Shown: positions 2,676-16,884 of the stretch, in pieces
Numbering within the stretch: position 1 is the first letter of the stretch
How the letters are laid out: each line of letters begins with the position of its first letter
Source of the DNA: Candidatus Caldarchaeales archaeon
GTDB taxonomy: Archaea > Thermoproteota > Nitrososphaeria_A > Caldarchaeales > Calditenuaceae
DNA: 43,247 nt
Assembly (NCBI GenBank): GCA_032249095.1
Contig: JAVVGN010000006.1
Coordinates: 1 to 43,247, forward strand
Reading direction: 5' to 3'
Position numbers and translations under genes: made by a program
Notes under the pieces: generated by a model
The model's database searches: none
What the model was told of the DNA's origin: nothing
What the model saw: only the letters and a program-made list of their open reading frames with translations

Positions 2676-2796
2676 CATAGTAGAACGGGCGCAGGGGACT
2701 GTCGCCTTGCTGGCTATCGCCAGCACAGGGGAATGCGCCCCCACCGTCCTTTCGCCGAGGAATTATATTGCTGGATGCGTTATAATTAAATAGTGG

Positions 2797-3222
2797 GTGA
2801 GCAGTATGTTGGAGAAACAACAAGGCGAACGATGGGCTGTCCACTACGGTGGTGTTTGCGAAATTCGCTATCACTTCGTTTGGTGCCCAAAATACCGCCG
2901 TCCTATCCTCGCGGGTTTGGTGGCAGAGAGACTTAGACAATTGCTGGAGGAGCGCGTTGCTATGCTTGGTGGCGAAGTTATAGAAATCGCCATCCAGCCT
3001 GACCATGTGCACCTTTTCCTTCGCTTGCATACTCCTTATCTTGCACCTGCTCAAATTGCTTACCGCCTTAAGGGTTATACAAGCAGAATATTGCGGAAGG
3101 AGTTTCCAGAGTTGCGCCGCCGCTTGCCGACCTTGTGGAGCCGCTCCTATTATGTTGGCACTGTTGGACAGGTTAGCAAGGAAATAGTTGAAAGATATAT
3201 TGCGTCGCAAAGGGGGCGTTAG
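2797..3222 (+). CDS. tnpA: IS200/IS605 family Y1 (HUH) transposase TnpA
   Basis: Contains YHFVWCPKYRRPIL, the HUH motif HVHLF, and the C-terminal SYYVGTVG catalytic-Tyr region. Size about 140 aa. Start is GTG 2797 or ATG 2806. Confidence 0.9.
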   Translation: MSSMLEKQQGERWAVHYGGVCEIRYHFVWCPKYRRPILAGLVAERLRQLLEERVAMLGGEVIEIAIQPDHVHLFLRLHTPYLAPAQIAYRLKGYTSRILRKEFPELRRRLPTLWSRSYYVGTVGQVSKEIVERYIASQRGR

Positions 3223-4497
3223 TTGTTGAAACTTACTTATCAATATAAACTCAAACCAACCAAAACACAAAGCAGGCTGCTGTGGCAGTTTTTGGCAATA
3301 TCGTGTCAAATCTACAATGATGCCCTTAAGGAACGAAAAGAGGCTTGGGAAACCGAGCGCCGAACCGTCACCTATCAAGAACAAGCCCTCAAACTTAAGG
3401 ATTTGCGGGCAACCGATAAAGAACTGGCGCTCCTTAACTTTTCCGCCTGCCAACATGTCTTGCGCCGCCTTGACAAAGCCTTTAAACGCTTCTTTAATGG
3501 GCTGAAGAAAGGCGAGAAAGTGGGCTACCCCCGCTTCAAGAAACCCCACCGTTTCAGGACTTTGGAGTTTACCTACGGCGACGGCACAAAGATTATGCCC
3601 GATGAGAAAGGAAGGTTGCGGTTGTATGTCCAAAATGTCGGTTTGATTAAGGTTATCTAGCATCGCCCGTTGCCCGAAGGAGCGGTCATCAAACAAGTGT
3701 GGGTTACCCTTAAGGCTGATGGTTGGTATGCTACATTTGCTTTGGAAGTGCCCGACGAGGCTGTCAGGAAACCCTTGCTAAAGACAGAAAAAGCCGTCGG
3801 GATAAATGTCGGTTTGGAAAACCTTTTGGCGCTTTCTGACGGAACGCTGATAGATAACCCCAAGTGGTTTAAGGCAACCGAGGAAAAGATTGCCCTTAAG
3901 CAACGAATACTCAGCAAGAAGGTTAAGGGTTCTAAGAGATGGCGAAGGATGTGTCGGCAAATTGCTAAGTTGCATCTTAAGGTTGCCAGACAAAGGCGGG
4001 ATTTCTATTTCAAATTGGCAGGTTGGCTCGTGAGGGAGTTTGACCTTATCGCCGTTGAGGATTTGAACACTAAGGGTTTGGCGCAAGGGATTTGTAGTAA
4101 GGGTGTGCACGATGCCAGTTGGGGCATTTTCCTTAACCAAATCCTGCCTTACAAGGCTTGGAGCGCTGGTAAGGCAGTGGTTAAGGTTAGCCCCAACGGC
4201 ACTTCCCAATATTGTGCTATGTGTGGCGCTTGTGTGCCGAAAGACCTGTCCGAGCGTCAACATTGTTGCCCGCATTGCGGTTTCGTGACGCATCGTGACA
4301 TCAACTCCGCAATCTTAATCCTTAAGATGGGCTTGGAGCGAGCCCGCAAGGGCGCTGGTTTCACACTAGCGTCGTGCCTGCAGGAAGCTGTCGGCTTTAG
4401 CCGACAGTGGCTCACAGTAGAAGAGGATGATGTGACAAGAAAAGTGGAAAAACTCCTAAAGGCAATAGACGCCCTGCTAAGGAGACTTCAGAGTTAA
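3223..4497 (+). pseudogene. tnpB: TnpB (OrfB_IS605, RuvC + zinc ribbon) with one in-frame TAG at 3658-3660; the reading frame continues past the IS right end into flanking gene sequence
   Basis: N-terminus LKLTYQYKLKPTK. The two ORFs 3223-3660 and 3670-4497 share a frame and are separated only by TAG. Zn ribbon CAMCGACVPKDLSERQHCCPHCG followed by HRDINSA. The TTG start overlaps the tnpA stop. Confidence 0.8.
4329..4416 (+). ncRNA. Conserved 3' part of a putative TnpB omega-RNA scaffold (the 5' limit is not determinable here)
   Basis: This segment overlaps the tnpB 3' end and is conserved in the ORF-less mini copies. Stems GGGCTTG/CGAGCCC and CTGTCGGC/GCCGACAG vary between copies by substitutions that keep pairing only as G:U in this transcript sense. 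Confidence 0.5.
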
Positions 4498-5477: not shown

Positions 5478-5596
5478 TATTAACCTCCCCCCACTGAAAA
5501 TTTTAGGGGTATGAGCCGCTCAGGAGGTTACCTTCTGCCGAATAATAAGGGAAAGGACAACGCTTATGACCAACGACCTTAGGAGGCACTGTAGCC

Positions 5597-6085
5597 ATGT
5601 GGGAGTGGGCACCGCAACTTTTGCGGGCGTTCCAAGAAAATTACGCACCGATTCTCGCCCAGTGGGGGCTGCCATTCCAAGTGCACACGCAGGAGACGGA
5701 AAACCCAATGGAGGGTATCTCCAAGTATACCGTCAAAATAGAAATCTGCAGACCGTCCGCAACCGGAGAATACCTCGTGCTGATAGAAGAATCTCTCCAC
5801 AAAGCGGACAAGAAGCGTTGGATTACCGTCGGGTCGTCCTTAGGAGCAGCGATAACGCGGTGGAAACTGGATCAGCTGGTCTGGAGGGTCTTCCACAACG
5901 CGGCAAACGATATTATCGCCGATATCATTGCCGAGCAAGTAAAAAGATATGCCCCCAGCGAGACGGTCAAGGTCAATTTCGCCTTGAGCGACGGGGCGAT
6001 TATCCGCTTTGGCTGGGGGACCCTCCACATCCCGTTGTCACACATTGGAGAAATGCCAAAGCTAATTGCAATGCTTGCAGTTTGA
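5597..6085 (+). CDS. Hypothetical protein, paralog family 2 (with 6190-6762)
   Basis: AGGAGG upstream. The N-terminus APILAQWGLPFQV is similar to APKLRQWGISVTP of the next ORF. Preferred over the overlapping frame 5566-6165. Confidence 0.55.
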   Translation: MWEWAPQLLRAFQENYAPILAQWGLPFQVHTQETENPMEGISKYTVKIEICRPSATGEYLVLIEESLHKADKKRWITVGSSLGAAITRWKLDQLVWRVFHNAANDIIADIIAEQVKRYAPSETVKVNFALSDGAIIRFGWGTLHIPLSHIGEMPKLIAMLAV

Positions 6086-6189
6086 CCGCCTGCCCCCACC
6101 CGCTAACCAAAGATTTAGGGATTAGCGGGATGGCGGACGCTTCAATAGGCGGCACTGCCGAATAATAGCATCGGTGGAGGTGTTACAGA

Positions 6190-6762
6190 ATGGACCCGAA
6201 GGAATCCTTTAACTTAGCAGTGCACTTGTTTGAGACTGTCTTCGCTCCCAAGCTGCGGCAATGGGGGATTTCTGTAACCCCTATGGACGACTACGGGGGG
6301 AGAAAAGAGTGGACTATAGAGAGCCACAAAGGAGCAACAATAATTTTAATAACTCCCCACGTATCTGGCATTGGAATTTACAGGGAGGGACCAGGGGGAA
6401 GAATAATGCGTACTTGGGAATACTCAAAGGAAAAGGCGGTAAAAGCGATCCGCAGGAAACTCATTAAAGTAACCGCAGGCGCGATTGTGTCTATTTGCCG
6501 AAGTACGGCACCGCCAGAATTCACCAGACTTTACATAGACTACCGATTCACTGAGGAGAAAATTGACTGGTGGTTAAGAGATACCCGCACGACACTCCCT
6601 TCTGAGATAGCCCTAACCTTTGTGATTGAGCCAACGCGTCTTCGTTGGAAGTGGATAGTAGAAATTGAGCGAAGAAACAAATTTACCGTGCAGGGGGATG
6701 ATAATCCAATAGAAGCCCACCACCGCATTCTTAAAACAGGTATTTCCCTTGCTACTCTATGA
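6190..6762 (+). CDS. Hypothetical protein, paralog family 2
   Basis: GGTGGAGGTG RBS 8 nt before the ATG. Similar to 5597-6085. Confidence 0.6.
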   Translation: MDPKESFNLAVHLFETVFAPKLRQWGISVTPMDDYGGRKEWTIESHKGATIILITPHVSGIGIYREGPGGRIMRTWEYSKEKAVKAIRRKLIKVTAGAIVSICRSTAPPEFTRLYIDYRFTEEKIDWWLRDTRTTLPSEIALTFVIEPTRLRWKWIVEIERRNKFTVQGDDNPIEAHHRILKTGISLATL

Positions 6763-7554
6763 AACAAGGCGACGCAGAAAGGCAAATCTTCGAACTAAAC
6801 GGTTTGTCACCTCCCCAAGCGCAAGGCCCAACTCGCTTATTACCCCCGCCAAACGCTCAAGGCTATCTGCTAATTTGTCCGCATCTGCCTTAAGTTTATC
6901 CCGCTGCACATCCGTCAGGCTCTCATCCTGCAGCTGCCCTCTTAAATACTCCAATACCAATTCCCCAATTTCGTTGATTTTCTCCCAATAGACCTTCACC
7001 TCATCCCAGTTCCCTTTCACTACGGCTTCCTTAAATAGCTCTGCCAAAGCTTCTATATTGATAGGTCGCTCCGCCACCTTAGAAAGGTGTTCTTCAATAA
7101 TTTCTCGAGATTCCCTAAACAACTTAAGTGTCTTTCCTTTTAAAGTACCGAGGCCGCTGTCATGAAGGCGAGGCAACCCCTCCCCTATTTTTATGCTTTG
7201 CCAACGGCCCTTTTCCTCCGCTATTTTCTGGTCAACAACCCCAGCGATAAGATCAATCCATTCTTTTATTTCCTCCTCAAAATATTTAACAGTCGAAAGA
7301 TTGGGAGGGACGCTGAAAAGGCGGCAAATTCTTTTGAAGGCAGGCGAGTTGTCCACCTCTTTAAGCAATCTTGCTATATCCGCTACTAACTCAGAAGAGG
7401 GTAGGTGTTTCCGCACCTGCCCCCATGCCGGATAATCCAAAATGACTTTTTCCCAATCCACCTCCGTCCAAGGTACCTCCTGCACCTCTACTTCCTCTGC
7501 CTGCCGCGGCGCCTCGTGCCCTTCACTTCCCGCCAAAAGCCTAAGTACCTCCAC
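6757..7554 (-). CDS. Hypothetical alpha-helical protein, paralog family 1
   Basis: Similar to 4542-5477 (see that entry). GTG start with no clear RBS; possibly coupled to the small ORF upstream. Confidence 0.6.
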   Translation of the reverse strand: MEVLRLLAGSEGHEAPRQAEEVEVQEVPWTEVDWEKVILDYPAWGQVRKHLPSSELVADIARLLKEVDNSPAFKRICRLFSVPPNLSTVKYFEEEIKEWIDLIAGVVDQKIAEEKGRWQSIKIGEGLPRLHDSGLGTLKGKTLKLFRESREIIEEHLSKVAERPINIEALAELFKEAVVKGNWDEVKVYWEKINEIGELVLEYLRGQLQDESLTDVQRDKLKADADKLADSLERLAGVISELGLALGEVTNRLVRRFAFLRRLVS

Positions 7555-7598
7555 AAGACTATCACGAAGGGTAATTAATCTGCCAATTACCTCGTTTT

Positions 7599-7727
7599 CT
7601 ATTGTATCGGCAAGGTCAGTCCACCAGCCTCTTCAGCTACTTCTTCTAAAAATCTCTTCAATTCGTAAGTACTGGCTAAGGCTAACCCTATATAGTTTGC
7701 TATTTCCCTCTTCCACACTCTACTCAT
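7599..7727 (-). CDS. Small hypothetical protein (42 aa)
   Basis: ATG 7727 is preceded by GGAGGTG. MSRVWKREIANYIGLALASTYELKRFLEEVAEEAGG looks like a real helical sequence. The longer ORF extending to 7892 lacks support. Confidence 0.35.
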   Translation of the reverse strand: MSRVWKREIANYIGLALASTYELKRFLEEVAEEAGGLTLPIQ

Positions 7728-7844
7728 TCTTTCATTTGCACCTCCATTCCATAAACGGATTTTAAACAGACGAAAAGTCCTTTGGGGTTTTAGCCAAAGG
7801 CAAAGCAAGCGAGGTAAAATTAAGGCGCTGGAGGTGTTTCTATA

Positions 7845-8102
7845 GTGGCCAATGTTATCAAAGGAAGAACGGATTTTGTAGTCATCTCCCAAACAAAAAA
7901 GTTCTATCGGATGCAGGATGCAGTCATCGACGGGCTAATCAATGTACTGTCGGAAACGATAAAGTGGCTGGAAGGTGTAAGGGGCAAAGCCTCCATCAGC
8001 GGGGTCATTCTCTCCTGGATCAATGATCTTCAAGAATGGGAAGTAATGATTACCTTCCGCGAACTGAGCCCAGAGGAACCGGTAACGAACGCGAAGAGTT
8101 AA
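7845..8102 (+). CDS. Small hypothetical protein (the start may be ATG 7911)
   Basis: The ORF ends with its TAA inside palindrome copy 2, as ORF 3670-4497 does in copy 1. Confidence 0.45.
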   Translation: MANVIKGRTDFVVISQTKKFYRMQDAVIDGLINVLSETIKWLEGVRGKASISGVILSWINDLQEWEVMITFRELSPEEPVTNAKS

Positions 8103-8124
8103 TTTCGGCGCCGAAATTAACTTT
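8095..8124. repeat. 30-bp palindrome, copy 2 of 5 (29/30 match, ...AACTTT)
   Basis: AGAGTTAATTTCGGCGCCGAAATTAACTTT, located between convergent genes. Confidence 0.9.
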
Positions 8125-8180
8125 TGAAAGGCGCGCCAATCCCAGCGGAAGGGAAAGATGTAACTTGACCCCCTCCTTTC

Positions 8181-8468
8181 CTATAGCCGCTTGTGCAACT
8201 TCCTGATAAGCTCATCTAACTTTCTCATCTTGGCGAAAAGGTCAACTTCCAAGGCGCCCTTGCTACTATCCTCAAGGAGAGGAATATACCCCCCAAGCCT
8301 AATAGCGTCACGGAGCCACCTCACACCGACATCCCCCAACTTCATATCACGAGCGACTACATCCTCTAAGGCACGAGTAATCTCATCTATAACCCGCGCT
8401 CTGATCCAATCCACATCCAAAGGTGCGCCTCCGATTTTATCCATCAACCTCTCCGCAAGCCATTTCAA
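8181..8468 (-). CDS. Hypothetical protein (95 aa); start uncertain
   Basis: ORF with a TTG start at 8468 or an ATG 8 codons in. The frame stays open upstream to a TAA but has no start codon there. Confidence 0.45.
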   Translation of the reverse strand: MKWLAERLMDKIGGAPLDVDWIRARVIDEITRALEDVVARDMKLGDVGVRWLRDAIRLGGYIPLLEDSSKGALEVDLFAKMRKLDELIRKLHKRL

Positions 8469-8644
8469 TCCATCCGAAGTAGGTGCAACATCTATCGCTG
8501 CCCTGCAATCCTCACAAGTCGGAATATAATCCCATTCACTATCGTCAAAAATATCTTAATTCCATATGTAATTTTAACCTTTTTGGTAGCCGAGGAGAAT
8601 TGTCTTGATTCTTAAGCAAACCGATTGCCCCAGATTTGGGCTCA

Positions 8645-8720
8645 CGCAGTGGCGATAGCCAGCACATGGGTTCAAACCCCATCAGGGCAATCCGTCAGAT
8701 TCAGCCGACGGTAGGTGACC
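8645..8720 (+). mobile_element. Deletion remnant of a subfamily-B mini IS605-type element (LE hairpin joined to the last ~55 nt of the RE scaffold)
   Basis: GTGGCGATAGCCAGCACA plus TGGGTTCAAACCCCATCAGGGCAATCCGTCAGATTCAGCCGACGGTAGGTGACC. This aligns with 14160-14177 and with TGGGTTTAACCCCCACACGGGCAAGCCGCCGGCTTTAGCCGACGGTAGCTGACA at 14303-14357. Confidence 0.5.
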
Positions 8721-9647
8721 GAGGGCACTTCTTAGCAAGAGGAATTTGAAAAACACCTTTGCTGAGCCCCAGTAGACCAATTCCGTAAGCCAGCTCAACA
8801 AACTCCGGTCCGCTTCGTTTAGATCAGAAAGAATGGGTCTGTCGTTAACTGTGGCCCGTACAATATCTACAAGGCGACTGATTTCACGGTAATAGATTTC
8901 TGCCGCTTCGTTCACCTCACCTTTCTGTAGAGCCCTCTTAAACCTCGCAGCCGCATCGGACAAAAGCTCTAACGCTGCATTCTTTTGTCCCTGCGGCAGT
9001 TGCGAAAGCGATAAAGCTTGCTTTAGGACATGGTGTAGGTGGTCAAAAGACTCAAAAACTTTTTGTGGGATATTTCTCCCCGCCAATAGTGCCTTCAGTT
9101 CATCAACAACCGAAAACAGGGGGGAAATGTAGTCTTGAATGATAGACGTAAGGGCATCCGAAAACACCTGCGTGTCTATCTTGACCTTCTGACACAGCGA
9201 GGAGAATTCTTCGTGTGACTCCATTTTAGCAAGCCATGAGCGTGCCTCCGCCAACTCGCTTTCAATATTACGAAGATAAAATTCTTCTATATGAGTTAAC
9301 ACTTCGTTCATCGAAGACGATACTGAAGAGTCTTCGTCCAGCATTTGTAAGACAACTTTCTTTGCCGAGTTTTCTATAACTTCCATCGAGCTATTTATTC
9401 CACAGACATAAAAACGAAACTTATAGATTATTTCATCCAGCTCCTTTTCCCGTTCCTCGCGGGATCGTGGCCTTTTCTTTTTTGCCTCCGCCCCAAGACG
9501 CTCCTTCTGATCGACGAGACACGCTAACAAAAACCACCCCAATAACCCGCTTAATTGCAAAAGTTTGGAGGATGCCCCCCCAGCAATATCTCTTATTGAG
9601 CGCCACTTCTCTAAAATGCGGTCACGAAAGCCTTTAGGTTCCATCAT
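8682..9647 (-). CDS. Hypothetical alpha-helical protein, paralog family 1 (ORF open to 9740; MM start at 9647 preferred)
   Basis: The C-terminal FFKFLLLRS motif resembles the other family members. The last ~12 codons and the stop lie inside the mini-element remnant. Confidence 0.55.
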   Translation of the reverse strand: MMEPKGFRDRILEKWRSIRDIAGGASSKLLQLSGLLGWFLLACLVDQKERLGAEAKKKRPRSREEREKELDEIIYKFRFYVCGINSSMEVIENSAKKVVLQMLDEDSSVSSSMNEVLTHIEEFYLRNIESELAEARSWLAKMESHEEFSSLCQKVKIDTQVFSDALTSIIQDYISPLFSVVDELKALLAGRNIPQKVFESFDHLHHVLKQALSLSQLPQGQKNAALELLSDAAARFKRALQKGEVNEAAEIYYREISRLVDIVRATVNDRPILSDLNEADRSLLSWLTELVYWGSAKVFFKFLLLRSALGHLPSAESDGLP

Positions 9648-9730
9648 ATCTACCCCACGTAAGGATTTTAAGTAACAAGCCTTGCAAGCGGCGAAGCGCG
9701 AGGTAATAATAGAATTGGAGGTGGCCCACG

Positions 9731-9916
9731 TTGTCTCCAATTGAAATTGTTGGACGGGACCCCGCTTACAGAGACAGCCAAGGTATCCTTTACTGCGGCG
9801 ATGCCTTAGAGATTTTACAGAAATTGCCTTCGGAAAGCGTTGACCTCATCCTAACCGACCCGCCCTTCATGATCAGCCAAGAAACCGTCATCCGACGGGC
9901 ACCCCATCACAAGTAG
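9731..9916 (+). pseudogene. N-terminal fragment of a DNA (N6-A/N4-C) methyltransferase, truncated after the DPPF motif
   Basis: ILYCGDALEILQKLPSESVDLILTDPPF is followed by 15 unrelated codons and a TAG. Only 61 codons, against about 250-300 for intact enzymes of this kind. Confidence 0.6.
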
Positions 9917-10713
9917 TCGGCAACCGCGTATCCCAAGCTCAGGAGATTTACCGAACACTTAAAGAAAAAGTTGAAGGAGTATATTTACTTCACAGCCGTT
10001 TCACCAGACGAGACCGCGCAGAGAAGGAACGAAGGATAATTGGTTCATTAAGGGATACAGACAACACAGAAGTTCGAGTTTTAGTAGCAACCCAAGTTGT
10101 CGAGGTATCGTTAGATATAAGCTTTGACACCCTCTACACAGAGATAGCCCCCGTTGACGACTTACTCCAACGGTTCGGCAGGGTCAACCGTTACGGTGAG
10201 CACCCCGCTGGCGTGGAAGTCCATGTAGCAACCAAATACGATAAGCGCCTGCATAACGTCTATGGGAAAGAGCGCCTCGAAGCGACCCTCAACTGCGGGC
10301 CCGCTGATAACGCCGAGCTACCCTATGTTGTGTGCTCGCAATGGGTTAAGAGGGTTTACAAAGGGTGGACGAAATCTGAAGAGAGGAGGTTCTCTAAAGC
10401 AATGAGGGGGCTGGAAGAGTTATGTCGGGACCTAAAGCCGCTGACGGCCCTGAGTGAAGAGGATGAGCACGACTTAGAAAGTTACCTCAGCCAAACAATT
10501 GAAGTTCTTCCTAAATGTCTGGAGGACACTTTTAACCAATACTGGAACAACGGAGAGTATCTGCTTGCCTTTCAACTCCTCGCCCCCGTGCCCTTCTGGG
10601 TATGGAAGGAGTTACCAAAGAAAACAAAGAAAATAGGAAATGGGCAAGAAATATCGATAACCGATACGGCATATGACTCTGAAGAGGGGCTTAAAATTGA
10701 AATTGGTGAGTGA
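9913..10713 (+). pseudogene. cas3: Cas3-type SF2 helicase fragment (RecA2 lobe + C-terminal domain only; no HD nuclease, no RecA1, no start codon before GTG 10213)
   Basis: Frame-1 translation from 9913: VVGNRVSQAQEIYRTLKEKVEGVYLLHSRFTRRDRAEKERR...VRVLVATQVVEVSLDISFDTLYTEIAPVDDLLQRFGRVNRYG. HSRF...DR, ATQVvEvSLDIsFD and QRfGRvnR are hallmark Cas3 helicase motifs V/VI. The frame opens only at 9844. Confidence 0.7.
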
Positions 10714-11777
10714 CCGTGCGTGAAAAAGACTGGGAAAAGGCAATCCAAATCGTTGACAAAGAATACAAAAACAAAGTGGTTCGGGGGTCAGCCCAATGGT
10801 GGTCTTTGGTTCTCGGAGTATATAAGAAAATGCAGGGGCGAAAAATGCTTCGGCGGCTCAAAGCAGCAGGAATCCTAAGGAAGCAGCAGATAGACTTACT
10901 GACCATCCTCGCCCCGATTCTAACACCTTCCTTCCCAATTTCCATTGACCAGCTGTTAGTAGACCTACCTACTCCATTTACCATTACTTCGCTGGAAAAC
11001 TTGGCGGCACATTACCAACGTCTTATTCCCCAGATGGCGCTTTTATCCCCTTCCCAAAACCCGCCCCTCGTCTTTGTGCCTCTCCGTGCCGAAGAAATTC
11101 TCAAACTTGAAGAAGGGCAAGGGATCCCACTCACGACAATAGACGAATTCCCTGAATGGGTGGAAACATTCATTAAGGCATGGTATACCGCTATTTTGTG
11201 CGGCATTTTGGACGGCGTTTTTGTTCCGCAGGGCGAGGCAGGACTAAAATGGATTCTCCAGCTAACTGCTAATCCAGTGCTGAAGACTTTCTTGGGTACA
11301 CAATTACGGCGTAATCTTGAAAGCCTCAATACGGCGTGCCGTCAGTGGCAAAACATCACATTGGCGGACGCGCTGAGCCTACAGCACCGCTTTGGCGTAT
11401 TTAAGCAAAACAATGTCACGATGGGCGCTTTTCTACACCCGTCAGCCATCGGGCGGGTATGGTGCGTCCGCCTCCACGCCCTCCATAACCCTCTCTTTCC
11501 CAAAGAATTTAGCCCTGCCAATGCTCATCAGTGGTGGCTGAACACCATCCAAAGCCTCCTTCCTTGTCAATACTTGGACGAGGGAAATGTGGAAGGGTGG
11601 GTTCCACTCATCGGCGGTGTCCTTAACCGTGACGACATCGGAGCACTTGTTATCTTTAGAGATTTCGTCCCCGCCCATCCGTCATTGCGGATAATTGAAG
11701 TTGACTTTGACACGGATTATAATTTAATCGCTGAGGTTGCTACTAAGGTAATAAAGCAGAGAAGTGGGGCGAAATGA
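10710..11777 (+). CDS. Hypothetical protein (355 aa), translationally coupled to the flanking ORFs
   Basis: GTGA overlap with the cas3-like frame and ATGA overlap with the portal-like gene. No Walker motif or other family signature seen. Confidence 0.55.
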   Translation: MTVREKDWEKAIQIVDKEYKNKVVRGSAQWWSLVLGVYKKMQGRKMLRRLKAAGILRKQQIDLLTILAPILTPSFPISIDQLLVDLPTPFTITSLENLAAHYQRLIPQMALLSPSQNPPLVFVPLRAEEILKLEEGQGIPLTTIDEFPEWVETFIKAWYTAILCGILDGVFVPQGEAGLKWILQLTANPVLKTFLGTQLRRNLESLNTACRQWQNITLADALSLQHRFGVFKQNNVTMGAFLHPSAIGRVWCVRLHALHNPLFPKEFSPANAHQWWLNTIQSLLPCQYLDEGNVEGWVPLIGGVLNRDDIGALVIFRDFVPAHPSLRIIEVDFDTDYNLIAEVATKVIKQRSGAK

Positions 11778-14074
11778 CCGACCGAGAGCTAGCTGAAGCA
11801 ATGGAACGACTGAGGCAGGCAATAGTTTCAACTCCGTCCACCCTCGATAAGGAGCTGGCAAAAGCAGATGCCGCCATTGCACCAACACTAAATGAAACCT
11901 TTGCTATGCAAATGCTTGAGAAAGCATTGCCGCCCGTCCCAACCACTCTTATTACTACCAACCTGGATGAAGCCAGCCAGCGTCTAGTAGAGCAGGTTTG
12001 GAACCTAATGCTATCTGGGCGGTCAACGCGGGTTCGCCGGAGTTGGCATGTTAACTTTATCTTGCTCCGCCGATTGTCTTGGCTCAACCCCATCATCCGT
12101 CCCGCTATCAACCTCATAAGACAAGAATTGCGCCAACTCAACTGGGAAATCGTCCCGCTAAAGCCCGAAGCGAAAGGAAGAGTTTTATTAGCCCACAGGT
12201 TACTTTTGAACCCTCACCCGCTACTTTCGTGGGGCGAATGGCTGGATAAAATGGTAGAAGATAGCCTCGCTCTGGACGCCGCAGCATCCGAAGTTTGGTC
12301 GGCAAGATACATACCTTTTACGATCACTTACCCCCAACTCGTCTTGCCCCAACTGGAAGAGAAAAAGAAGAAGCCAGAAATGCCCGCTGCCCCGCAGCAA
12401 GCCCCGCCTGACCTGGAAGAACTCATCGGATTGGCGGGGGGAATGCGGAAAGAATTAGCATCTTCTTTACTCCATACCAAACGTATGGCGGAATTAGTTA
12501 TTAAAGAGAGATTGTTTTGGTTGGAAGAGTGCGGGCTGGTTAAGTCAACGACAGACATTTACCGATATATTGACGCGATGTGTAACCGATTGTCTAAAGC
12601 GAGAGACCTGCTGGAAGCCCACGAAATCATGGTCGCCGAAAGCCCATCCGTCCTGCGCAAAACCTTCGGGGGCTCCGAGGAAGAGTTGAACAAAGCGGCG
12701 CTTAGCGTCAGCGAACCAAGCCTAATCCCCTACCCGATGGATTTGCCCCTAGCGCTTATCCCCGTGCCTGGCGAACAGATTGAGTTCCAGGGAGATATTT
12801 ATACACTGGTTTTAGACCCTTACTTCCCCTATTTGCGCGTGGTAAACGGCGTTATCATGCGGGCTTATCAGCGACACGAACTAATGTATGTCAAGGAAAA
12901 CCCTCGCACTTGGAGTTTCTACGGGCTCTCGCCGATTGAATGTGTCATTATCGTCGCCCACGTCATGCTCTACGCCCACGATGTTCAGTTTAGATATTTC
13001 TTGACGGGCGCTGTGCCAGCAGCCGTGATCGGCGTCGTCGGCGCTGGAGATGTCTCTGAAATTCGGGCTTACTTAAACGAGGTTGCACGGGGTAAACAGG
13101 AAGCCATCGCCGTCCTCGGCATCCCGCCACAAGGCAACCTCATCGTCCAGCGCCTCGCCGAAACCAACCGAGAGTTGCAATACATTCAACTGCTGGAATG
13201 GTATGCCCGACTAATTTCTATCGCCTTCGGTCTCCAACCCTGGGAACTGGGCATCCTCTCTGGCGGAACACCGTCCCGCAGGATGCTTCGGCAAAGACCA
13301 GGCATTTACGGACGATTTATCACCTGGGAAAATGCCATCAACCATCACATCATCTACCGAGGTTTTAAACTGGCACCCCACCGAGACGCAGTCTTCAGGT
13401 TTGTGAACAAAGACATCGGCGACTTCAATGAGGAATCACAAGCCGTAACCAACTTGGTTGAACGGGGAATTATCACCAGAAACGAAGCGCGGCACAGACT
13501 TGGTTACCCACCCCTCGTTGGCGGGCTGCCCGACCACGCCTACACCGTCGCTGGTCAAGCGCTGTTGCTCCATGGAAAAGCCCCGCCTGTTGGCACAGAG
13601 GGCGAGCCGCCTGAAATCCCACCCATTCCCAGCCCCGTCGGCTTCTGGGTGCCGCCCCCCGTGGGGGGCATAAGCGCCGCTATGGCAGCAGGGGGGCGAG
13701 GTGGGGGTGGAGGCGGTGCTGGTGGCGGTCTTGCGGGGCTGCTCGGCTTGGCGAAATCTCTCATACCTACCCCTACTACGGTTTCTTTAGAAAAATGGAG
13801 TGACGAAATTCAAATTGCTTTGAAACTCTTTGCCAGAGCAATGGTCGCTGGGGGAGAAGTTACTCATTGGCGGGAGGGTATCGCGCTCGGCATCGCCATC
13901 AAAGATGCACTGGAAAAGCAGCTAAAGCGCCAAATTACGGACGGAGAGTGGATTGCGACGCTCCGCCAAATTCTGGATTTTCTCTGGAAAACCAAGTGGG
14001 CGAAGGAATGGGATGAGCTAATGCTTAAAATGGTAGACATTACCGACTTGCTCAAACCACCAGACAACAGATAA
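11774..14074 (+). CDS. Putative portal-like virion protein with a Gly-rich C-proximal linker
   Basis: 766-aa ORF. The call rests on size, on an N-proximal segment (NPIIRPAINLIRQELRQLNWEIVP) reminiscent of portal families, and on context. I cannot verify it without a profile search. Confidence 0.4.
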   Translation: MTDRELAEAMERLRQAIVSTPSTLDKELAKADAAIAPTLNETFAMQMLEKALPPVPTTLITTNLDEASQRLVEQVWNLMLSGRSTRVRRSWHVNFILLRRLSWLNPIIRPAINLIRQELRQLNWEIVPLKPEAKGRVLLAHRLLLNPHPLLSWGEWLDKMVEDSLALDAAASEVWSARYIPFTITYPQLVLPQLEEKKKKPEMPAAPQQAPPDLEELIGLAGGMRKELASSLLHTKRMAELVIKERLFWLEECGLVKSTTDIYRYIDAMCNRLSKARDLLEAHEIMVAESPSVLRKTFGGSEEELNKAALSVSEPSLIPYPMDLPLALIPVPGEQIEFQGDIYTLVLDPYFPYLRVVNGVIMRAYQRHELMYVKENPRTWSFYGLSPIECVIIVAHVMLYAHDVQFRYFLTGAVPAAVIGVVGAGDVSEIRAYLNEVARGKQEAIAVLGIPPQGNLIVQRLAETNRELQYIQLLEWYARLISIAFGLQPWELGILSGGTPSRRMLRQRPGIYGRFITWENAINHHIIYRGFKLAPHRDAVFRFVNKDIGDFNEESQAVTNLVERGIITRNEARHRLGYPPLVGGLPDHAYTVAGQALLLHGKAPPVGTEGEPPEIPPIPSPVGFWVPPPVGGISAAMAAGGRGGGGGGAGGGLAGLLGLAKSLIPTPTTVSLEKWSDEIQIALKLFARAMVAGGEVTHWREGIALGIAIKDALEKQLKRQITDGEWIATLRQILDFLWKTKWAKEWDELMLKMVDITDLLKPPDNR

Positions 14075-14099
14075 AAAGAAAAAGGAGATATAATATAAG

Positions 14100-14358
14100 G
14101 GCAGGTTGCAGTCGACCTCGCAGGGTTTCACAGAGAGTGGCAGCAGGAGGCTTTCGCCTTGCTGGCGATAGCCAGCACAGAGGAATGCCGCCTTTACACC
14201 TCCTTTCAGTTACGTTATAATTGTAATTAGTGATTGAAAGAGCGTCTGCCCCTAACATAAGGTTAGGGGCTCGGGCTGCCGTCAGCCAGCCCCAGATGCT
14301 CGGTGGGTTTAACCCCCACACGGGCAAGCCGCCGGCTTTAGCCGACGGTAGCTGACAG
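14100..14358 (+). mobile_element. Subfamily-B mini IS605-type element (LE hairpin + TATAAT + diverged omega-RNA-like scaffold)
   Basis: TCGCCTTGCTGGCGATAGCCAGCACAGAGGAATGCCGCC aligns with TCGCCTTGCTGGCTATCGCCAGCACAGGGGAATGCGCC at 2702-2738. ACGTTATAATT (TATAAT at 14216-14221). The 3' end is GCCGGCTTTAGCCGACGGTAGCTGACAG, against GTCGGCTTTAGCCGACAGTGGCTCACAG in the full element. The left limit is approximate. Confidence 0.55.
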
Positions 14359-14361
14359 GGT

Positions 14362-14913
14362 ATTTCGCGACGACATGGGTAAGGTGGAAATATAAAAAGG
14401 GGTATAATAATAGGAGGAGGTCGCAGCCGACAACGCAGGATGTTTCGCGACAGTATAGGTAAGGTGGAAAGTGGAAAGGCATGGTAGGCATTTGTTGGAG
14501 CAATGGGAATGCAGTTTCGCGACAACATGAGTGTGGTGGAAAGAAACTTGGCAGAGTTGGCAGAGATGGGTTCGCGACAACATGAGTGTGGTGGAAAGAT
14601 AACTTCGTCCCTCACCCGAAGAGAAGGGTGAGGAGGTTTCGCGACGACATGAGTGGAGTGAAAAGCAAAGGGATGCCAGCGTTTCGCGACAACGCAAGTA
14701 TGGCGGAAGGTGGAAAGAAGGTGGAAAGTCAACCTGCCATTGGTCGTTTTGTGGTTTCGCGACGACATTGGTAAGGTGGAAAGGCATTCATTGTGGGCGA
14801 GGATGATGACAACGTTTCGCGACAACACGAGTAAAGTGGAAAGGAAGGCGGCGCACTTGCAAGGCGAAGAAGGCGGGTTGATAGCTTCGCGACAACAAGA
14901 GTGTGGTGGAGGG
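14362..14913 (+). repeat. Array of nine direct 30-bp repeats, consensus GTTTCGCGACRAC-N8-GGTGGAAAG (CRISPR-like termini, irregular spacing)
   Basis: Unit starts: 14362, 14442, 14514, 14569, 14636, 14681, 14754, 14814, 14884. The TTCGCGAC core is invariant. The 3' GTGGAAAG is mostly conserved and the centre is variable. Gaps between units are 50, 42, 25, 37, 15, 43, 30 and 40 nt. Confidence 0.85.
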
Positions 14914-14939
14914 GAAAGTATAATATACACGGACGGCGC

Positions 14940-14969
14940 AGAGTTAATTTCGGCGCCGAAATTAACTCT
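14940..14969. repeat. 30-bp perfect palindrome, copy 3 of 5
   Basis: Exact AGAGTTAATTTCGGCGCCGAAATTAACTCT. It lies between the repeat array and the AAGGAGG RBS of ORF 14988. Confidence 0.9.
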
Positions 14970-14987
14970 AAGGAGGATGGAAAGAAG

Positions 14988-15281
14988 ATGGCAACGCTTC
15001 GGAGTTGCTTCTTTGCGTACACTCACCAGATGGCGGGCGCTAACTTGGACGAGGAGGTAAAAATCGTCCGCCTAAAGCGGGTGGATACCGACGTTGAGGT
15101 GATAGTGTGCGAAGCGTGTGCGGGGAGATTACTATCAACGGGGAACTTTGTTGTCGTAGAAGAGTTTCGCGACGACATGGATAGAATGGAAAGCATAGAG
15201 CCCGTCGCCTTGCAAGACCTCTTGGATGAAGGAACGACAGTTGAGGATGTCAGCGACGACGGCGGAGAAGGAAATTCTTGA
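14988..15281 (+). CDS. Small acidic protein (97 aa) containing repeat unit R10 in its coding sequence; paralog of the IS-interrupted gene 2481/4417
   Basis: AAGGAGG at 14970-14976. ...FVVVEEFRDDMDRMESIEPVALQDLL resembles ...FVLVNNETHHIEF|VEEDDVTRKVEKLLKAIDALL. At DNA level GTAGAAGAG occurs at 15156-15164 and at 4417-4425. Confidence 0.5.
   Translation: MATLRSCFFAYTHQMAGANLDEEVKIVRLKRVDTDVEVIVCEACAGRLLSTGNFVVVEEFRDDMDRMESIEPVALQDLLDEGTTVEDVSDDGGEGNS
15164..15193 (+). repeat. Tenth copy (R10) of the 30-bp repeat, inside ORF 14988-15281
   Basis: GTTTCGCGACGACATGGATAGAATGGAAAG. It shares 16 contiguous nt (TTTCGCGACGACATGG) with R1. Confidence 0.8.
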
Positions 15282-16884
15282 AGCGGAAGAAGTCGTCGGA
15301 GCATACCTTTTCCTTCACCCAGAAGCCCTACATATCCCATACAGCCTGCGGGCGCTAAACTACCGCGCCCGCAATCCGCATTTCAAGGAATTACTGGAAG
15401 TTGCCTCGGCAGGGCTATCTGGGGGCGGGGTCAATTTCCGTGCCCACCTATCACCAGACAGCTATCGGTTCTGGAATGACAAATCTTTCTCATTAAGCCT
15501 CTCCCCAACTCACTACGAACAAGTCGCTGATGCCCTGCTCTTCCTCTGCGATGTCGCCCGATATGACTCTCTGCGTACTACCCTAAACGACCTCGCAAGA
15601 AATCTAACCCCCCACAATGTGACCGAAACAATACACTCCCTCTTGGAGCGGACAGCGAGCGTCCTGCACAGTACCAACTGGCGCATTCAATCGGGTAGCC
15701 TCTTGCAGGAGCAATACACAGCACGACTACGCAGCATCTACGAAACCAAGAACTTGCCCCTCTATAGTCACATCCAATTTCTGGACGGTCACGACATTTT
15801 CTTCCCACGCCGAGAATACACCCTCATATCTGGACGAACGGGCTCGGGGAAGACGAGCGTAGCGTGCATCCTAACCTACAACCTCCTTTTCTCGCACGAA
15901 AGGAATGACAGCCACGCAGCACCCCGCCCCCTTAACGTCCTCTACATTTCCTTAGAAGTGCCTTCAGAAGCCATTCTCGCCAAAATCCTTGGCACCTTCA
16001 CCCACAGGTACATCCTCAAGCGCGCTCCGGCAGGCGAACTCCCGCAATTTAGCGACGATGAAATCAAAACCCTAAAGCACTTTGGCTGGAACGATTTTTA
16101 CGCTAAAACCACACCCGAAAAATTTGAATTGACAATGAAGGTCTTAGACGTCTTCAGGGAGAAAGTTGGTGATAGACTGTCTATTTACCATAGCCCTGTC
16201 CTCACTGGCGACGATGTCGTTTTGTTAGTTACATCAAAAGCGCTAGAGCTTGCCGCCGATGGACAAACGCTGGATGTCGTGATCATTGACTTCATTCAAA
16301 ATCTAAGGACTCGCAGTGAAGCAAAGGGGCAAGGAAAAGAGGGGGCATCCCTGTCCCGCGAGATAGGCCACACCATTCAAGAACTCCAGCAAGTATTTAG
16401 CCGATTTGAAATTTGCGGAATAGTTCTATCGCAAGTTAATGACATGGGTGAAGTGCGAGACAGCCGTGTCCTCGAACACCTCGCCGCCGTCCACATCCGC
16501 ATAGGAAATTACTATCGGGATTTCTCTCCTTTGTTTGAAAGATACCTGCGGGGGAGTGGAAAATTTAAGGATGGGAAACCTGTCGATCGTGCCTCCGCAA
16601 GACAACTGGCAGAGACCTTCAACGATATCGCTCAAAAGCTCCCAAACAAGAAACTGCTGGATATTTCTGTCTCTAAAAACCGCTACGGCGATGAGATCAG
16701 AACTCCTCAGATTCTTATGTGGCGCCCTGCCATACCCCTCATAGTGCGAGGCTTCGAGATAGCCGAAGCGATCAAACATCTGGAAGAAGAGCAAGCTAAA
16801 AAGTCGCCAAAGAGTACCACAGAGGAAACGCCGACCCTTGCAGAACCCGAAGATACTACCCCCATAGGTGACTATCCCTTTTAA
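15226..16884 (+). CDS. DnaB/RepA-like replicative helicase (RecA-fold ATPase); the start may be ATG 15247
   Basis: Walker A SGRTGSGKTS, Walker B VVIIDFIQNL, and a GIVLSQVN (SQxN) motif typical of the DnaB C-terminal domain. Confidence 0.75.
   Translation: MKERQLRMSATTAEKEILEAEEVVGAYLFLHPEALHIPYSLRALNYRARNPHFKELLEVASAGLSGGGVNFRAHLSPDSYRFWNDKSFSLSLSPTHYEQVADALLFLCDVARYDSLRTTLNDLARNLTPHNVTETIHSLLERTASVLHSTNWRIQSGSLLQEQYTARLRSIYETKNLPLYSHIQFLDGHDIFFPRREYTLISGRTGSGKTSVACILTYNLLFSHERNDSHAAPRPLNVLYISLEVPSEAILAKILGTFTHRYILKRAPAGELPQFSDDEIKTLKHFGWNDFYAKTTPEKFELTMKVLDVFREKVGDRLSIYHSPVLTGDDVVLLVTSKALELAADGQTLDVVIIDFIQNLRTRSEAKGQGKEGASLSREIGHTIQELQQVFSRFEICGIVLSQVNDMGEVRDSRVLEHLAAVHIRIGNYYRDFSPLFERYLRGSGKFKDGKPVDRASARQLAETFNDIAQKLPNKKLLDISVSKNRYGDEIRTPQILMWRPAIPLIVRGFEIAEAIKHLEEEQAKKSPKSTTEETPTLAEPEDTTPIGDYPF

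What the first reader, a model, noticed from the sequence alone, without database searches (positions are those of the whole stretch)
14100..15193. Omega-RNA-like scaffold running head-to-tail into an irregular 10-unit 30-bp repeat array (CRISPR-like, iteron-like, or a hybrid)
Seen in sequence:
- A diverged copy of the window's IS605-type LE hairpin + TATAAT (14216-14221) + RE scaffold lies just after the portal-like gene. It ends ...GCCGGCTTTAGCCGACGGTAGCTGACAG at about 14358.
- Repeat R1 starts 3-4 nt later, so R1 sits where a TnpB omega-RNA would carry its guide.
- Eight further same-orientation units follow. A tenth lies 250 bp on, inside ORF 14988-15281.
- The repeats keep an invariant TTCGCGAC core. 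Their GTTTC...GGAAAG termini resemble Cas6-processed CRISPR repeats.
- The repeat centres vary and the gaps range from 15 to 50 nt. This is neither CRISPR-regular nor codon-periodic.
- R1 and R10 share 16 contiguous nt.
- The array ends at a 30-bp palindrome. It is followed by a helicase, a clamp and an ATPase.

Inference, three non-exclusive readings:
(a) A promoter-scaffold-array transcript, that is, a TnpB-type guide locus that has acquired repeat-separated segments. This is the kind of intermediate postulated between omega-RNA and Cas12 guide loci.
(b) Cas-less viral repeat units acting as RNA decoys against a host CRISPR system, or a decayed mini-array. A cas3 fragment lies 4 kb upstream.
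(c) Replication-origin iterons for the adjacent replisome genes, one of them embedded in coding sequence.

Sequence alone does not discriminate between these.
Basis: partly seen in the sequence, partly recalled or inferred. Interest (0 to 1): 0.8.

Follow-up and report, generated by a model that had tools for sequence, protein, structure and literature searches.

The report
Decaying phage CRISPR array with transposon insert
The irregular repeats are the worn-down remains of a CRISPR array carried by a family of very large phages, and the "omega-RNA scaffold" in front of it is a small gene-less IS605-type transposon that landed there in this lineage only, so this is not a new hybrid guide system or a replication origin.

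Summary
Ten same-strand 30-nt units with a TTCGCGAC core are present, and an IS200/IS605-derived element ends 3 nt before unit 1.

**The repeats are a degenerate CRISPR array.**
- At the same locus (portal to small ORF to DnaB-like helicase), sibling phages carry up to 23 units. These include long blocks of near-identical 30-nt repeats with unique 34-38-nt spacers.
- Those spacers match sibling phages' portal genes and a dispersed palindrome. Seven of eight regular full-length protospacers have a 5'-CCN flank.
- A 255-kb relative has cas8b1-cas7-cas5-cas3 (subtype I-B) 3.4 kb upstream of its array.

**In this lineage the system is decaying.**
- The conserved leader-like element is absent. A ~220-nt gene-less IS605 mini-element (PATE-like) sits in its place.
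- Only irregular units remain, with spacers of 15-50 nt.
- A near-identical sibling has a nonsense codon in cas8.
- The window has a 5.67-kb deletion that leaves only the last 266 codons of cas3.

**Verdict on the three readings.**
- More distant relatives (helicase 68% identical) keep the same replication genes with no repeats, which argues against iterons.
- Relatives keep the array without the scaffold, which argues against a TnpB/CRISPR hybrid.
- The "decayed mini-array" reading is correct.

This is a new member of a known kind, of moderate interest.

The parts
9731..9913 (+). N-terminal remnant (residues 2-62) of an N6/N4 DNA methyltransferase; left edge of the 5.67-kb deletion that removed the cas operon
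   Evidence: tblastn of the L143 methyltransferase gives 93% identity over residues 2-62. The blastn breakpoints are L143 7689 and 13355 against window 9912-9915.
9913..10713 (+). 3' fragment of cas3 (residues 464-729 of 729); non-functional remnant
   Evidence: tblastn gives 87% identity to L143 Cas3 residues 464-729. The full-length L142 protein scores 270 bits on cas3_core and 75 bits on cas3_HD.
11774..14074 (+). Portal gene, flanking the array; the main target of the sibling phages' spacers
   Evidence: Pfam Phage_portal and PHROG portal hits. Ten spacers from relatives map to window 12107-13871.
14083..14124 (+). Native upstream region of the array, with a promoter-like TATAAT at 14089-14094; conserved in relatives
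   Evidence: The portal-end regions of the window, L142, L129, L137 and L130 were compared side by side. A diverged duplicate lies in spacer 1 at 14394-14441 (family D8).
14125..14140 (+). Remnant of a degenerate repeat unit (GTTTCACAGAGAGTGG); in relatives this unit precedes the conserved leader-like element
   Evidence: It matches L129/L136/L139/L140 'GTTTCACGGCTAGTGG' and L138 'GTTTCGCGACAACACAGAAACAGG', both of which precede the leader-like element.
14139..14358 (+). Gene-less IS200/IS605 mini-element (PATE-like): left-end hairpin 14141-14192, promoter-like TTTACA-17-TATAAT 14193-14221, omega-RNA-like right-end scaffold to 14358. The left junction is uncertain by about 3 nt.
   Evidence: Homology to the full IS ends and to the sibling mini-elements. 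Promoter scan. Strong predicted fold, z = -4.2. Absent from the same site in all divergent relatives.
14362..14913 (+). Degenerate CRISPR array, units 1-9 (30 nt each) with spacers of 50, 42, 25, 37, 15, 43, 30 and 40 nt
   Evidence: Orthology to arrays in relatives: spacer 5 plus unit 6 match L137 units 11-12, and spacer 7 matches the L142 portal at 18 of 19 positions.
14919..14924 (+). TATAAT of the conserved trailer (GTATAATATAC.CGGACGGCGCAG) that ends the array in all relatives
   Evidence: The same trailer follows the arrays in L129, L132, L133, L134, L136, L137, L138, L139, L140 and L141.
14940..14969 (.). Perfect 30-bp palindrome (AGAGTTAATTTCGGCGCCGAAATTAACTCT); one of five dispersed copies at gene ends, and itself the protospacer of a sibling phage's spacer
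   Evidence: Copies found by blastn. Spacer 10 of L129/L136/L139/L140 matches it at 30-34 of 36 positions.
14988..15281 (+). Small acidic ORF (97 aa) overlapping the helicase start; conserved in relatives with and without arrays
   Evidence: Orthologues in L142, L134 and L003. No family match in Pfam, PHROGs or NCBIfam.
15164..15193 (+). Solitary repeat unit 10, in frame inside the small ORF (encodes FRDDMDRMES)
   Evidence: Present in the window, L142, L133 and L138; absent from L134 and L003.
2680..4417 (+). Full-length IS200/IS605: TnpA 2797-3222, and TnpB 3223-4497 with an in-frame TAG at 3658-3660. It is the autonomous relative of the mini-element family.
   Evidence: Pfam Y1_Tnp, HTH_OrfB_IS605, OrfB_IS605 and Cas12f1-like_TNB. 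Stop codon seen directly. Element ends read from sequence.

Best explanation
The 10 units are the degenerate remnant of a subtype I-B CRISPR array that a family of huge phages carries between the portal gene and the replicative-helicase module.

**How it works in functional relatives (inferred from type I-B biology).**
- The array is transcribed from the portal side.
- The pre-crRNA is cut so that each crRNA keeps the 8-nt AUGGAAAG tag from the repeat's 3' end.
- A phage-encoded Cas8b1-Cas7-Cas5 complex plus Cas3 then destroys co-infecting sibling phages. It targets mainly their portal gene, at protospacers preceded by 5'-CCN.

**What has happened in the window's lineage (shown).**
- A ~220-nt gene-less IS200/IS605 mini-element (left-end hairpin, promoter, omega-RNA-like right end) occupies the position of the leader-like element found in relatives.
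- Only old, irregular units remain.
- cas8 carries a nonsense codon in a near-identical sibling haplotype.
- In the window, a 5.67-kb deletion has removed cas8, cas7, cas5 and two thirds of cas3.

**Consequences (inferred).**
- The array is most likely a non-functional relic, still transcribed from the native promoter and the mini-element's promoter.
- Unit 1 sits where an omega-RNA would carry its guide only because an omega-RNA's guide is whatever DNA flanks the transposon's right end.
For: **Regular arrays at the same locus in relatives.**
- A metagenome scan found 13 contigs with arrays between the same portal 3' end and the same trailer/palindrome.
- They hold up to 23 units. L138 units 2-17 are 97% identical to each other.
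- 67 of 120 unique spacers are 34-38 nt, with a mode of 36.

**Spacers are real protospacer matches.**
- Matches reach 35/35, 37/38 and 35/37 against portal genes of sibling contigs.
- Ten spacers map to window 12107-13871, and one maps to the dispersed palindrome.
- The 5' flank is CCN for 7 of 8 regular full-length matches. The 3' flank shows no motif.

**A cas operon in a relative.** The 255.7-kb contig behind L142/L143 has, 3.4 kb upstream of its array:
- Cas8b1/Cst1 (TIGR01908, 32.9 bits; cutoff 19.4);
- Cas7/Cst2 (TIGR02585, 102 bits; cutoff 72.8);
- Cas5 (TIGR02593, 46.8 bits; cutoff 17.8);
- Cas3 (cas3_core 270 bits, cas3_HD 75 bits).

**Orthology of the window's units.**
- Spacer 5 plus unit 6 match L137 units 11-12.
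- Spacer 7 matches the L142 portal at 18 of 19 positions.
- The trailer is the same.

**Decay in this lineage.**
- The leader-like element is absent from the window and present in 11 related loci.
- The 5.67-kb deletion is mapped.
- L144 is 99.9% identical to window 2224-9915. It keeps the methyltransferase, cas8 and cas7, but has TCA>TAA at cas8 codon 138.
- The 1151-nt mini-element plus array region is 100% identical in three contigs that retain cas3 beyond the deletion breakpoint (L145, L146, L147).
- That region is also unchanged in the deleted contigs L150, L151 and, as far as it extends, L155.

**The scaffold is a transposon.**
- It has homologous ends and sibling copies in the window.
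- It is absent from this site in all divergent relatives.
- PATE-like elements that carry omega-RNAs are described in PMC10055086.
Against: - No expression or processing data exist.
- No cas6, cas1, cas2 or cas4 was seen within 10 kb of the operon in the relative. How pre-crRNA is processed and how spacers are acquired is therefore unknown.
- Even the relative L142, whose cas genes look intact, has many irregular units. Irregularity alone does not prove loss of function.
- The identical array occurs in contigs that still carry most of cas3. It could therefore have been in use until recently.
- No relative shows a clean empty site for the mini-element. It occupies the leader's place rather than simply interrupting a known sequence, and its left junction is ambiguous by about 3 nt.
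- The solitary in-ORF unit is not explained by this account.
Confidence: 0.8

Rival explanations
1. The array is still functional. It is transcribed from the mini-element's strong promoter, and its RNAs are used by Cas proteins supplied in trans, either by a co-infecting cas-positive sibling phage or by a host type I-B system.
For: - The promoter-like site at 14193-14221 (11 of 12 positions) faces the array.
- Most units keep the GGAAAG 3' tag, and spacers 4, 8, 2 and 6 are 37-43 nt.
- The identical array is carried by contigs that retain cas3.
- Huge phages often lack parts of the Cas machinery and are thought to borrow host proteins (PMC7162821).
Against: - cas8 has a nonsense codon in the sibling that still has the operon.
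- No window spacer has a convincing protospacer. The best is 18 of 19 for spacer 7.
- Spacer 1 is a copy of the array's own upstream region.
- No host array with this repeat was found.
Confidence: 0.12
2. The units act as RNA decoys (RNA anti-CRISPR, solitary-repeat-unit type) that soak up the Cas6 or Cascade proteins of a host or competitor I-B system.
For: - There are many repeat copies with short or useless spacers, and an extra solitary unit inside a transcribed ORF.
- The cas genes are dispensable in this lineage.
- The concept itself is known from the literature. I recall this and did not retrieve a paper for it here.
Against: - The repeat belongs to the phages' own cas-associated arrays.
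- No host array with the repeat appeared among the 14 metagenome hits. Thirteen were phage-locus arrays and one was unrelated.
- None of the 119 genome-scan rows listed carried the repeat.
- Degenerate units also occur beside active blocks in relatives, which fits ordinary decay.
Confidence: 0.05
3. The units are replication-origin iterons bound by an initiator (the small acidic protein or the helicase).
For: - The repeats lie immediately upstream of the helicase / clamp / ATPase genes, and one copy is inside the first ORF of that module.
- Each unit has a bipartite look, and there are extra GTGGAAAG half-boxes.
Against: - L003 and L004 have the same portal / small ORF / helicase / clamp module (helicase 68% identical) with only 85-128 nt between portal and ORF. 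They have no repeats, in or out of the ORF.
- The unit-to-unit spacings of 45-80 nt are not multiples of a helical turn.
- GC skew is negative on both sides of the array, with only a local G-rich blip at the array itself.
- In relatives the units are separated by unique spacers that follow a PAM.
Confidence: 0.02
4. The scaffold and the array form one evolved unit: a TnpB omega-RNA locus that has acquired repeat-separated guides, an intermediate on the way to a Cas12-type array.
For: - The right end of the mini-element stops 3 nt before unit 1, so unit 1 sits in the guide position.
- A promoter-like site inside the element points into the array.
Against: - The repeats are type I-B repeats with their own Cas8b1/Cas7/Cas5/Cas3.
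- About a dozen relatives have the array without the scaffold.
- The scaffold has sibling copies at unrelated sites in the window.
- The only tnpB in the window has an in-frame stop.
- The repeats have no similarity to the omega-RNA scaffold.
Confidence: 0.01

Closest known systems
CRISPR-Cas systems encoded by huge phages (Al-Shayeb et al. 2020, PMC7162821)
   Same: - The phage genome is over 200 kb.
- The array comes with an interference module, and no cas1/cas2/cas4 lies nearby.
- No cas6 lies nearby; the paper also describes a huge-phage type I variant that lacks Cas6.
- Spacers target structural genes of competing phages.
   Different: - The module here is subtype I-B (Cst1/Cst2/Cas5/Cas3).
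- Arrays in relatives hold 18-23 units, against a median of six in that study.
- Targeting is concentrated on the portal gene next to the array.
- The window's copy is a decayed, cas-deleted version.
Subtype I-B CRISPR arrays: 30-nt weakly structured repeats with an 8-nt 3' tag and a 5'-CCN PAM (the repeat format is recalled from memory)
   Same: - 30-nt repeat of the form GTTTC...ATGGAAAG.
- Little predicted structure.
- Spacer mode of 36 nt in relatives.
- CCN flank at protospacers.
- cas8b1-cas7-cas5-cas3 gene order.
   Different: In the window the spacers are 15-50 nt, the repeats are only 67-97% alike, the leader-like element is missing and the cas genes are deleted.
PATE-like gene-less IS200/IS605 elements carrying omega-RNAs (PMC10055086)
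   Same: - Left-end and right-end hairpins are homologous to those of an autonomous tnpA-tnpB element in the same genome.
- No coding capacity.
- The right end is homologous to the omega-RNA region at the 3' end of tnpB.
- Several copies exist.
   Different: - No covariance-model match to any curated RNA family.
- The internal scaffold differs from that of the full IS.
- No clean empty site or TAM could be defined.
- It lies inside a phage CRISPR locus.
Virus-borne mini-CRISPR arrays and solitary repeat units (recalled from memory; not retrieved here)
   Same: A viral repeat array without a functional cas set in the same genome, in a setting of conflict between related viruses.
   Different: Here the array descends from the phage lineage's own cas-associated array, and no matching host repeat was found.
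Origin iterons of phages and plasmids
   Same: Direct repeats next to replication genes, with one copy inside a coding sequence.
   Different: - They are not conserved together with the replication module.
- They are not helically phased.
- In relatives they are separated by unique, PAM-selected spacers.

Membership tests
CRISPR array (subtype I-B) | Same-orientation direct repeats of constant length (about 30 nt) | tested here: met
   There are ten 30-nt units on the + strand. They are degenerate, with pairwise identity of 67-97%.
CRISPR array (subtype I-B) | Unique spacers of near-constant length | tested here: not met
   The window's spacers are 15-50 nt. The feature is met in orthologous arrays of relatives, where 67 of 120 unique spacers are 34-38 nt with a mode of 36.
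CRISPR array (subtype I-B) | Common descent with bona fide arrays at the same locus | tested here: met
   The portal flank, trailer and palindrome are the same as in relatives. Spacer 5 plus unit 6 are shared with L137.
CRISPR array (subtype I-B) | Associated cas genes | tested here: not met
   The window keeps only Cas3 residues 464-729, because of a 5.67-kb deletion. Relative L143 has cas8b1, cas7, cas5 and cas3. Sibling L144 has a nonsense codon in cas8.
CRISPR array (subtype I-B) | Spacers match foreign DNA next to a PAM | tested here: inconclusive
   In the window only spacer 7 has a match, and it is partial (18 of 19). In relatives many matches run the full spacer length, with a CCN flank in 7 of 8 regular cases.
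CRISPR array (subtype I-B) | Leader adjacent to the newest repeats | tested here: not met
   The conserved leader-like element is absent from the window and present in 11 related loci. The mini-element occupies its position.
CRISPR array (subtype I-B) | Transcription and processing into crRNAs | not testable with these tools
   Only promoter-like sites are available as evidence.
IS200/IS605 gene-less mini-element (PATE) with omega-RNA | Left- and right-end hairpins homologous to an autonomous element | tested here: met
   85% identity to the left end at 2688-2739 and to the right end at 4385-4417.
IS200/IS605 gene-less mini-element (PATE) with omega-RNA | No protein-coding gene | tested here: met
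   The element is about 220 nt, made of hairpin, promoter and scaffold.
IS200/IS605 gene-less mini-element (PATE) with omega-RNA | Presence/absence polymorphism at the site (mobility) | tested here: met
   It is absent at this site in L142, L129, L130, L131, L135, L136, L137, L139, L140 and L141. It is present in the near-identical strains L145, L146, L147, L150, L151 and L155.
IS200/IS605 gene-less mini-element (PATE) with omega-RNA | Clean empty site and a transposon-adjacent motif | tested here: inconclusive
   The element replaces the leader-like element rather than interrupting a known sequence. The 5' flanks of the copies show no shared motif.
IS200/IS605 gene-less mini-element (PATE) with omega-RNA | Omega-RNA expressed and used by TnpB | not testable with these tools
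   There is no Rfam match. The only tnpB in the window has an in-frame TAG.
Replication-origin iterons | Repeats conserved together with the replication module they serve | tested here: not met
   L003 and L004 have the module without any repeats.
Replication-origin iterons | Helical phasing and an origin-type skew inflection | tested here: not met
   The spacings are 80, 72, 55, 67, 45, 73, 60 and 70 nt. GC skew shows no sustained sign change at the array.
RNA anti-CRISPR / solitary repeat units | Repeat mimics a host CRISPR repeat | tested here: inconclusive
   No host array with this repeat appeared in the metagenome scan or in the listed genome-scan rows.
TnpB-to-Cas12 intermediate (scaffold plus array as one unit) | Scaffold and array inherited together | tested here: not met
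   Divergent relatives have the array without the scaffold.

The most novel reading that the evidence does not exclude
The mini-element is more than a passive insertion. Its omega-RNA guide (GGTATTTCGCGACGACATGG, the leader-repeat junction of the array), used with a TnpB supplied in trans, would cut the head of sibling phages' CRISPR arrays during co-infection. Repair would then copy the element in, replacing their leader. That would make it a transposon gene drive that disarms a competitor's CRISPR locus. As a variant, the element's promoter may keep a leaderless array expressed for use with Cas proteins from a co-infecting sibling.
Probability: 0.06. Interest if true: 0.75.

Novelty: new member of a known kind. 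Interest (0 to 1): 0.35.

Why it matters
- **It resolves an apparent omega-RNA/CRISPR hybrid into two ordinary parts.** These are a phage-borne type I-B array and an IS605 mini-element. An omega-RNA scaffold abutting a CRISPR repeat can arise by simple insertion.
- **It gives a natural decay series for a phage CRISPR-Cas locus within one family of huge phages.** The stages seen are active arrays with PAM-consistent spacers, then a leader lost to a transposon, then a cas8 nonsense codon, then deletion of the operon.
- **Sibling phages aim their spacers mainly at each other's portal gene and at a dispersed palindrome.** That is a clear, testable case of phage-against-phage CRISPR conflict.

Tried and rejected
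- **GenBank phages.** Neither the region (blastn) nor the helicase (tblastn) gave any match.
- **IMG/VR.** No helicase relatives were found and no arrays with this repeat. The four hits to the triple-core pattern were unrelated repeats, one of them an unrelated true CRISPR array, L007.
- **Genome-collection scan.** The TTTCGCGAC x3 pattern was too permissive. It is only a weak negative for a host repeat.
- **Rfam.** Nothing credible was found on 14000-15300. The only hit was a sub-threshold miRNA model.
- **Minus-strand ORF 14052-15026 (324 aa).** It spans the mini-element and the array and has no Pfam match. I attribute it to the purine-rich + strand, which leaves the minus strand free of stop codons. 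The unit spacings are not multiples of 3, so it cannot encode a repeat protein.
- **Iterons.** Rejected by comparison with L003/L004 and by the skew profile.
- **A simple 'empty site' for the mini-element in L142.** This was my first reading. I revised it after seeing that 14125-14140 is native sequence shared with L129-type loci.
- **TAG recoding as an explanation for the split tnpB.** Not supported. TAG ends 5 of 30 ordinary genes, and the stop in the sibling's cas8 is TAA.
Full report
**1. The observation**

The repeat array is real.
- TTCGCGAC occurs ten times on the + strand between 14364 and 15173. The whole window has 11 occurrences against 1.3 expected, and no shuffle reaches that count.
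- The motif anchors 30-nt units with consensus GTTTCGCGACRACATGAGTRWGGTGGAAAG. Units start at 14362, 14442, 14514, 14569, 14636, 14681, 14754, 14814, 14884 and 15164. They are separated by 50, 42, 25, 37, 15, 43, 30, 40 and 250 nt.
- Units 1-9 are only 79% identical on average.
- The tenth unit lies in frame inside ORF 14988-15281.

The 'scaffold' is also real.
- The window has an IS200/IS605 element with TnpA (2797-3222) and TnpB (3223-4497, split by an in-frame TAG).
- 14139-14192 matches that element's left-end hairpin, and 14326-14358 matches its right end.
- Gene-less sibling elements lie at 12-190(-) and 28905-29095(-). A partial one lies at 8600-8720.
- The right end stops at 14358, 3 nt before unit 1.
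- A near-consensus promoter-like site (TTTACA-17-TATAAT, 14193-14221) points towards the array.
- The 30-bp palindrome at 14940-14969 is one of five dispersed copies, all at gene ends.

**2. Context**

The window is phage DNA.
- Identified genes are a portal (11774-14074), a DnaB-like helicase (15226-16884), a clamp-like protein, an AAA ATPase, three sigma factors and a family A polymerase.
- There are no relatives in GenBank phages or IMG/VR.
- The protein database holds close relatives on contigs of up to 255.7 kb, so this is a huge phage.

**3. What the relatives show**

*The 255.7-kb relative (L001/L142/L143; helicase 97% identical).*
- It has the array directly after the portal with no IS-derived element.
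- It has 17 units plus the in-ORF unit, including a run with a period of exactly 65 nt.

*Relatives with 68% identical helicase (L003, L004).*
- They have the same portal / small ORF / helicase / clamp order.
- Only 85-128 nt separate the portal from the ORF, and there are no repeats at all.

*The metagenome scan.* A scan with a two-unit pattern returned 13 further contigs, all at this same phage locus (same portal end, same trailer, same palindrome).
- Their arrays hold up to 23 units. Long blocks of near-identical repeats (97% in L138) separate unique spacers.
- 67 of 120 unique spacers are 34-38 nt, with a mode of 36.
- These regular blocks follow a conserved, hairpin-containing, leader-like element of about 60 nt.
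- The regular blocks are flanked by degenerate units with short spacers, like those in the window.

**4. These are working CRISPR arrays in relatives**

- Spacers match portal genes of sibling contigs at up to 35/35, 37/38 and 35/37 positions.
- Ten spacers map to the window's portal gene (12107-13871). One matches the dispersed palindrome.
- For the regular full-length matches, the 3 nt on the 5' side are CCN in 7 of 8 cases. Chance expectation is 1 in 16 per site. The 3' side shows no motif.
- This fixes the orientation of the array as GTTTC...ATGGAAAG, transcribed from the portal side. From established knowledge, a 5'-CCN motif is a typical type I-A/I-B PAM.
- The repeat has little predicted structure.
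- In L143 the operon 3.4 kb upstream of the array encodes four Cas proteins:
  - Cas8b1/Cst1 (TIGR01908, above cutoff);
  - Cas7/Cst2 (TIGR02585, 102 bits, above cutoff);
  - Cas5 (TIGR02593, above cutoff; TIGR01895 90.5 bits, just below cutoff);
  - Cas3 (HD plus helicase).
- No cas6, cas1, cas2 or cas4 lies within 10 kb of the operon.
- This fits what is described for huge phages in PMC7162821. Most phage systems there lack the acquisition genes, one type I variant lacks Cas6, and spacers target structural genes of competing phages.

**5. The state of the locus in the window**

- The window's units are orthologous to the old, degenerate parts of relatives' arrays:
  - spacer 5 plus the unusual unit 6 (GTTTCGCGACAACGCAAGTA...) correspond to L137 units 11-12;
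  - spacer 7 retains 18 of 19 positions of a portal protospacer;
  - the trailer is the same.
- Spacer 1 is a diverged duplicate of the array's own upstream region.
- The leader-like element is absent from the window. In L129-type loci it follows the degenerate remnant GTTTCACGGCTAGTGG. In the window the equivalent remnant (14125-14140) is followed by the IS mini-element instead.
- Compared with L143, the window lacks 5.67 kb. The missing stretch covers most of a methyltransferase gene, cas8, cas7, cas5 and Cas3 residues 1-463.
- L144 is 99.9% identical to window 2224-9915 and still has the methyltransferase, cas8 and cas7. Its cas8 has TCA>TAA at codon 138.
- The 1151 nt from the portal stop to the helicase start (mini-element plus array) are 100% identical in three contigs from three samples that retain cas3 beyond the breakpoint (L145, L146, L147).
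- The same region is unchanged in the deleted contigs L150 and L151 and, as far as it extends, in L155.

The most likely order of events is therefore:
1. leader loss with insertion of the mini-element, and loss of the regular units;
2. the cas8 nonsense mutation (relative order of this and step 1 is not resolved);
3. deletion of the cas operon.

**6. Mechanism**

*Shown:*
- homology of the array to cas-associated arrays with PAM-consistent spacers;
- the transposon nature of the scaffold;
- decay of the cas genes.

*Inferred:*
- In functional relatives, crRNAs with an AUGGAAAG 5' tag guide a Cas8b1-Cas7-Cas5 complex and Cas3 against co-infecting sibling phages.
- In the window the array is a relic, probably still transcribed from the native promoter (14089-14094) and from the mini-element's promoter.
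- Unit 1 lies in the 'guide' position only because an omega-RNA's guide is whatever lies 3' of the transposon's right end. TnpB uses that guide to cut the vacated site (PMC10055086).

**7. Rivals**

- **Iterons.** Contradicted by L003/L004, by the unphased spacing and by the GC skew, which is negative on both sides of the array.
- **TnpB/CRISPR hybrid.** Contradicted by the presence/absence pattern of the scaffold and by the repeats' own type I-B cas genes.
- **Decoy function, or use of Cas proteins supplied in trans.** Not excluded.

**8. Novelty and score**

Phage-borne CRISPR-Cas systems that target competitors, and PATE-like IS605 elements, are both known kinds. This is a new member of each, in an unusual but probably incidental juxtaposition. 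The points of real interest are:
- the portal-focused conflict between sibling phages;
- the spacer against a dispersed palindrome;
- the stepwise decay series;
- the unexplained solitary repeat inside a coding sequence.

Interest is 0.35.

Noticed in passing
window 1726-1832 (+): A 107-nt tmRNA-like gene. It scores 93 bits in Rfam (gathering score 47) and matches both ends of the model, with 273 internal model positions skipped. That leaves the tRNA-like domain without the mRNA-like part. ARAGORN does not call it.
   Followed up: no
window about 4490-4519, 8095-8122, 14940-14969, 29765-29794, 42754-42783: A perfect 30-bp palindrome (AGAGTTAATTTCGGCGCCGAAATTAACTCT) recurs at gene ends, like a terminator or operator. 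A spacer in sibling arrays (L129/L136/L139/L140, unit 10) matches it. Those phages' own copy next to the array is diverged (…AAGGTTATTTTCGGCGCC…).
   Followed up: partly
window 15164-15193; L142 about 9918; L133; L138: A solitary CRISPR repeat unit sits in frame in the variable acidic linker of the small ORF upstream of the helicase. It is present in four array-bearing relatives and absent from L134 and L003. Its origin and any function are unexplained.
   Followed up: partly
window 12107-13871 (portal gene): All ten sibling spacers that map to non-palindrome sequence in the 43-kb window fall inside the 2.3-kb portal gene next to the array, on both strands. This could reflect primed acquisition or a DNA-end hot spot. 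The sampling is biased towards portal-containing contigs.
   Followed up: partly
window 3658-3660: tnpB of the full IS200/IS605 is interrupted by a single in-frame TAG. It is probably a pseudogene.
   Followed up: partly
L001 5463-5680 (= L142 about 9463-9680): The 255-kb relative has an extra structured insert of about 215 nt between the array-end TATAATATA and the palindrome. The window lacks it, so this may be another small mobile element.
   Followed up: no
L135 8764-8830 and L130 1180-1425 (minus orientation): In these contigs the array is followed by a second copy of the portal 3' end rather than by the small ORF and helicase. This is either a rearrangement or an assembly artefact.
   Followed up: no
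window 29794-32352 (-): The family A DNA polymerase carries an N-terminal uracil-DNA-glycosylase-superfamily domain in the same ORF.
   Followed up: no
window 39216-39345: A 33-nt tandem repeat of about 3.9 copies lies inside the 931-aa ORF 37085-39880. That ORF is coiled-coil-like and has no clear family.
   Followed up: no
L007 1907-2900 (minus orientation), IMG/VR UViG_3300036853_000417: An unrelated but regular CRISPR array on a viral contig: 14 repeats ending ...TTTTTCGCGACTGAGCGATTGAAAC, with a period of 73-76 nt. It was picked up only because it shares the core motif.
   Followed up: no
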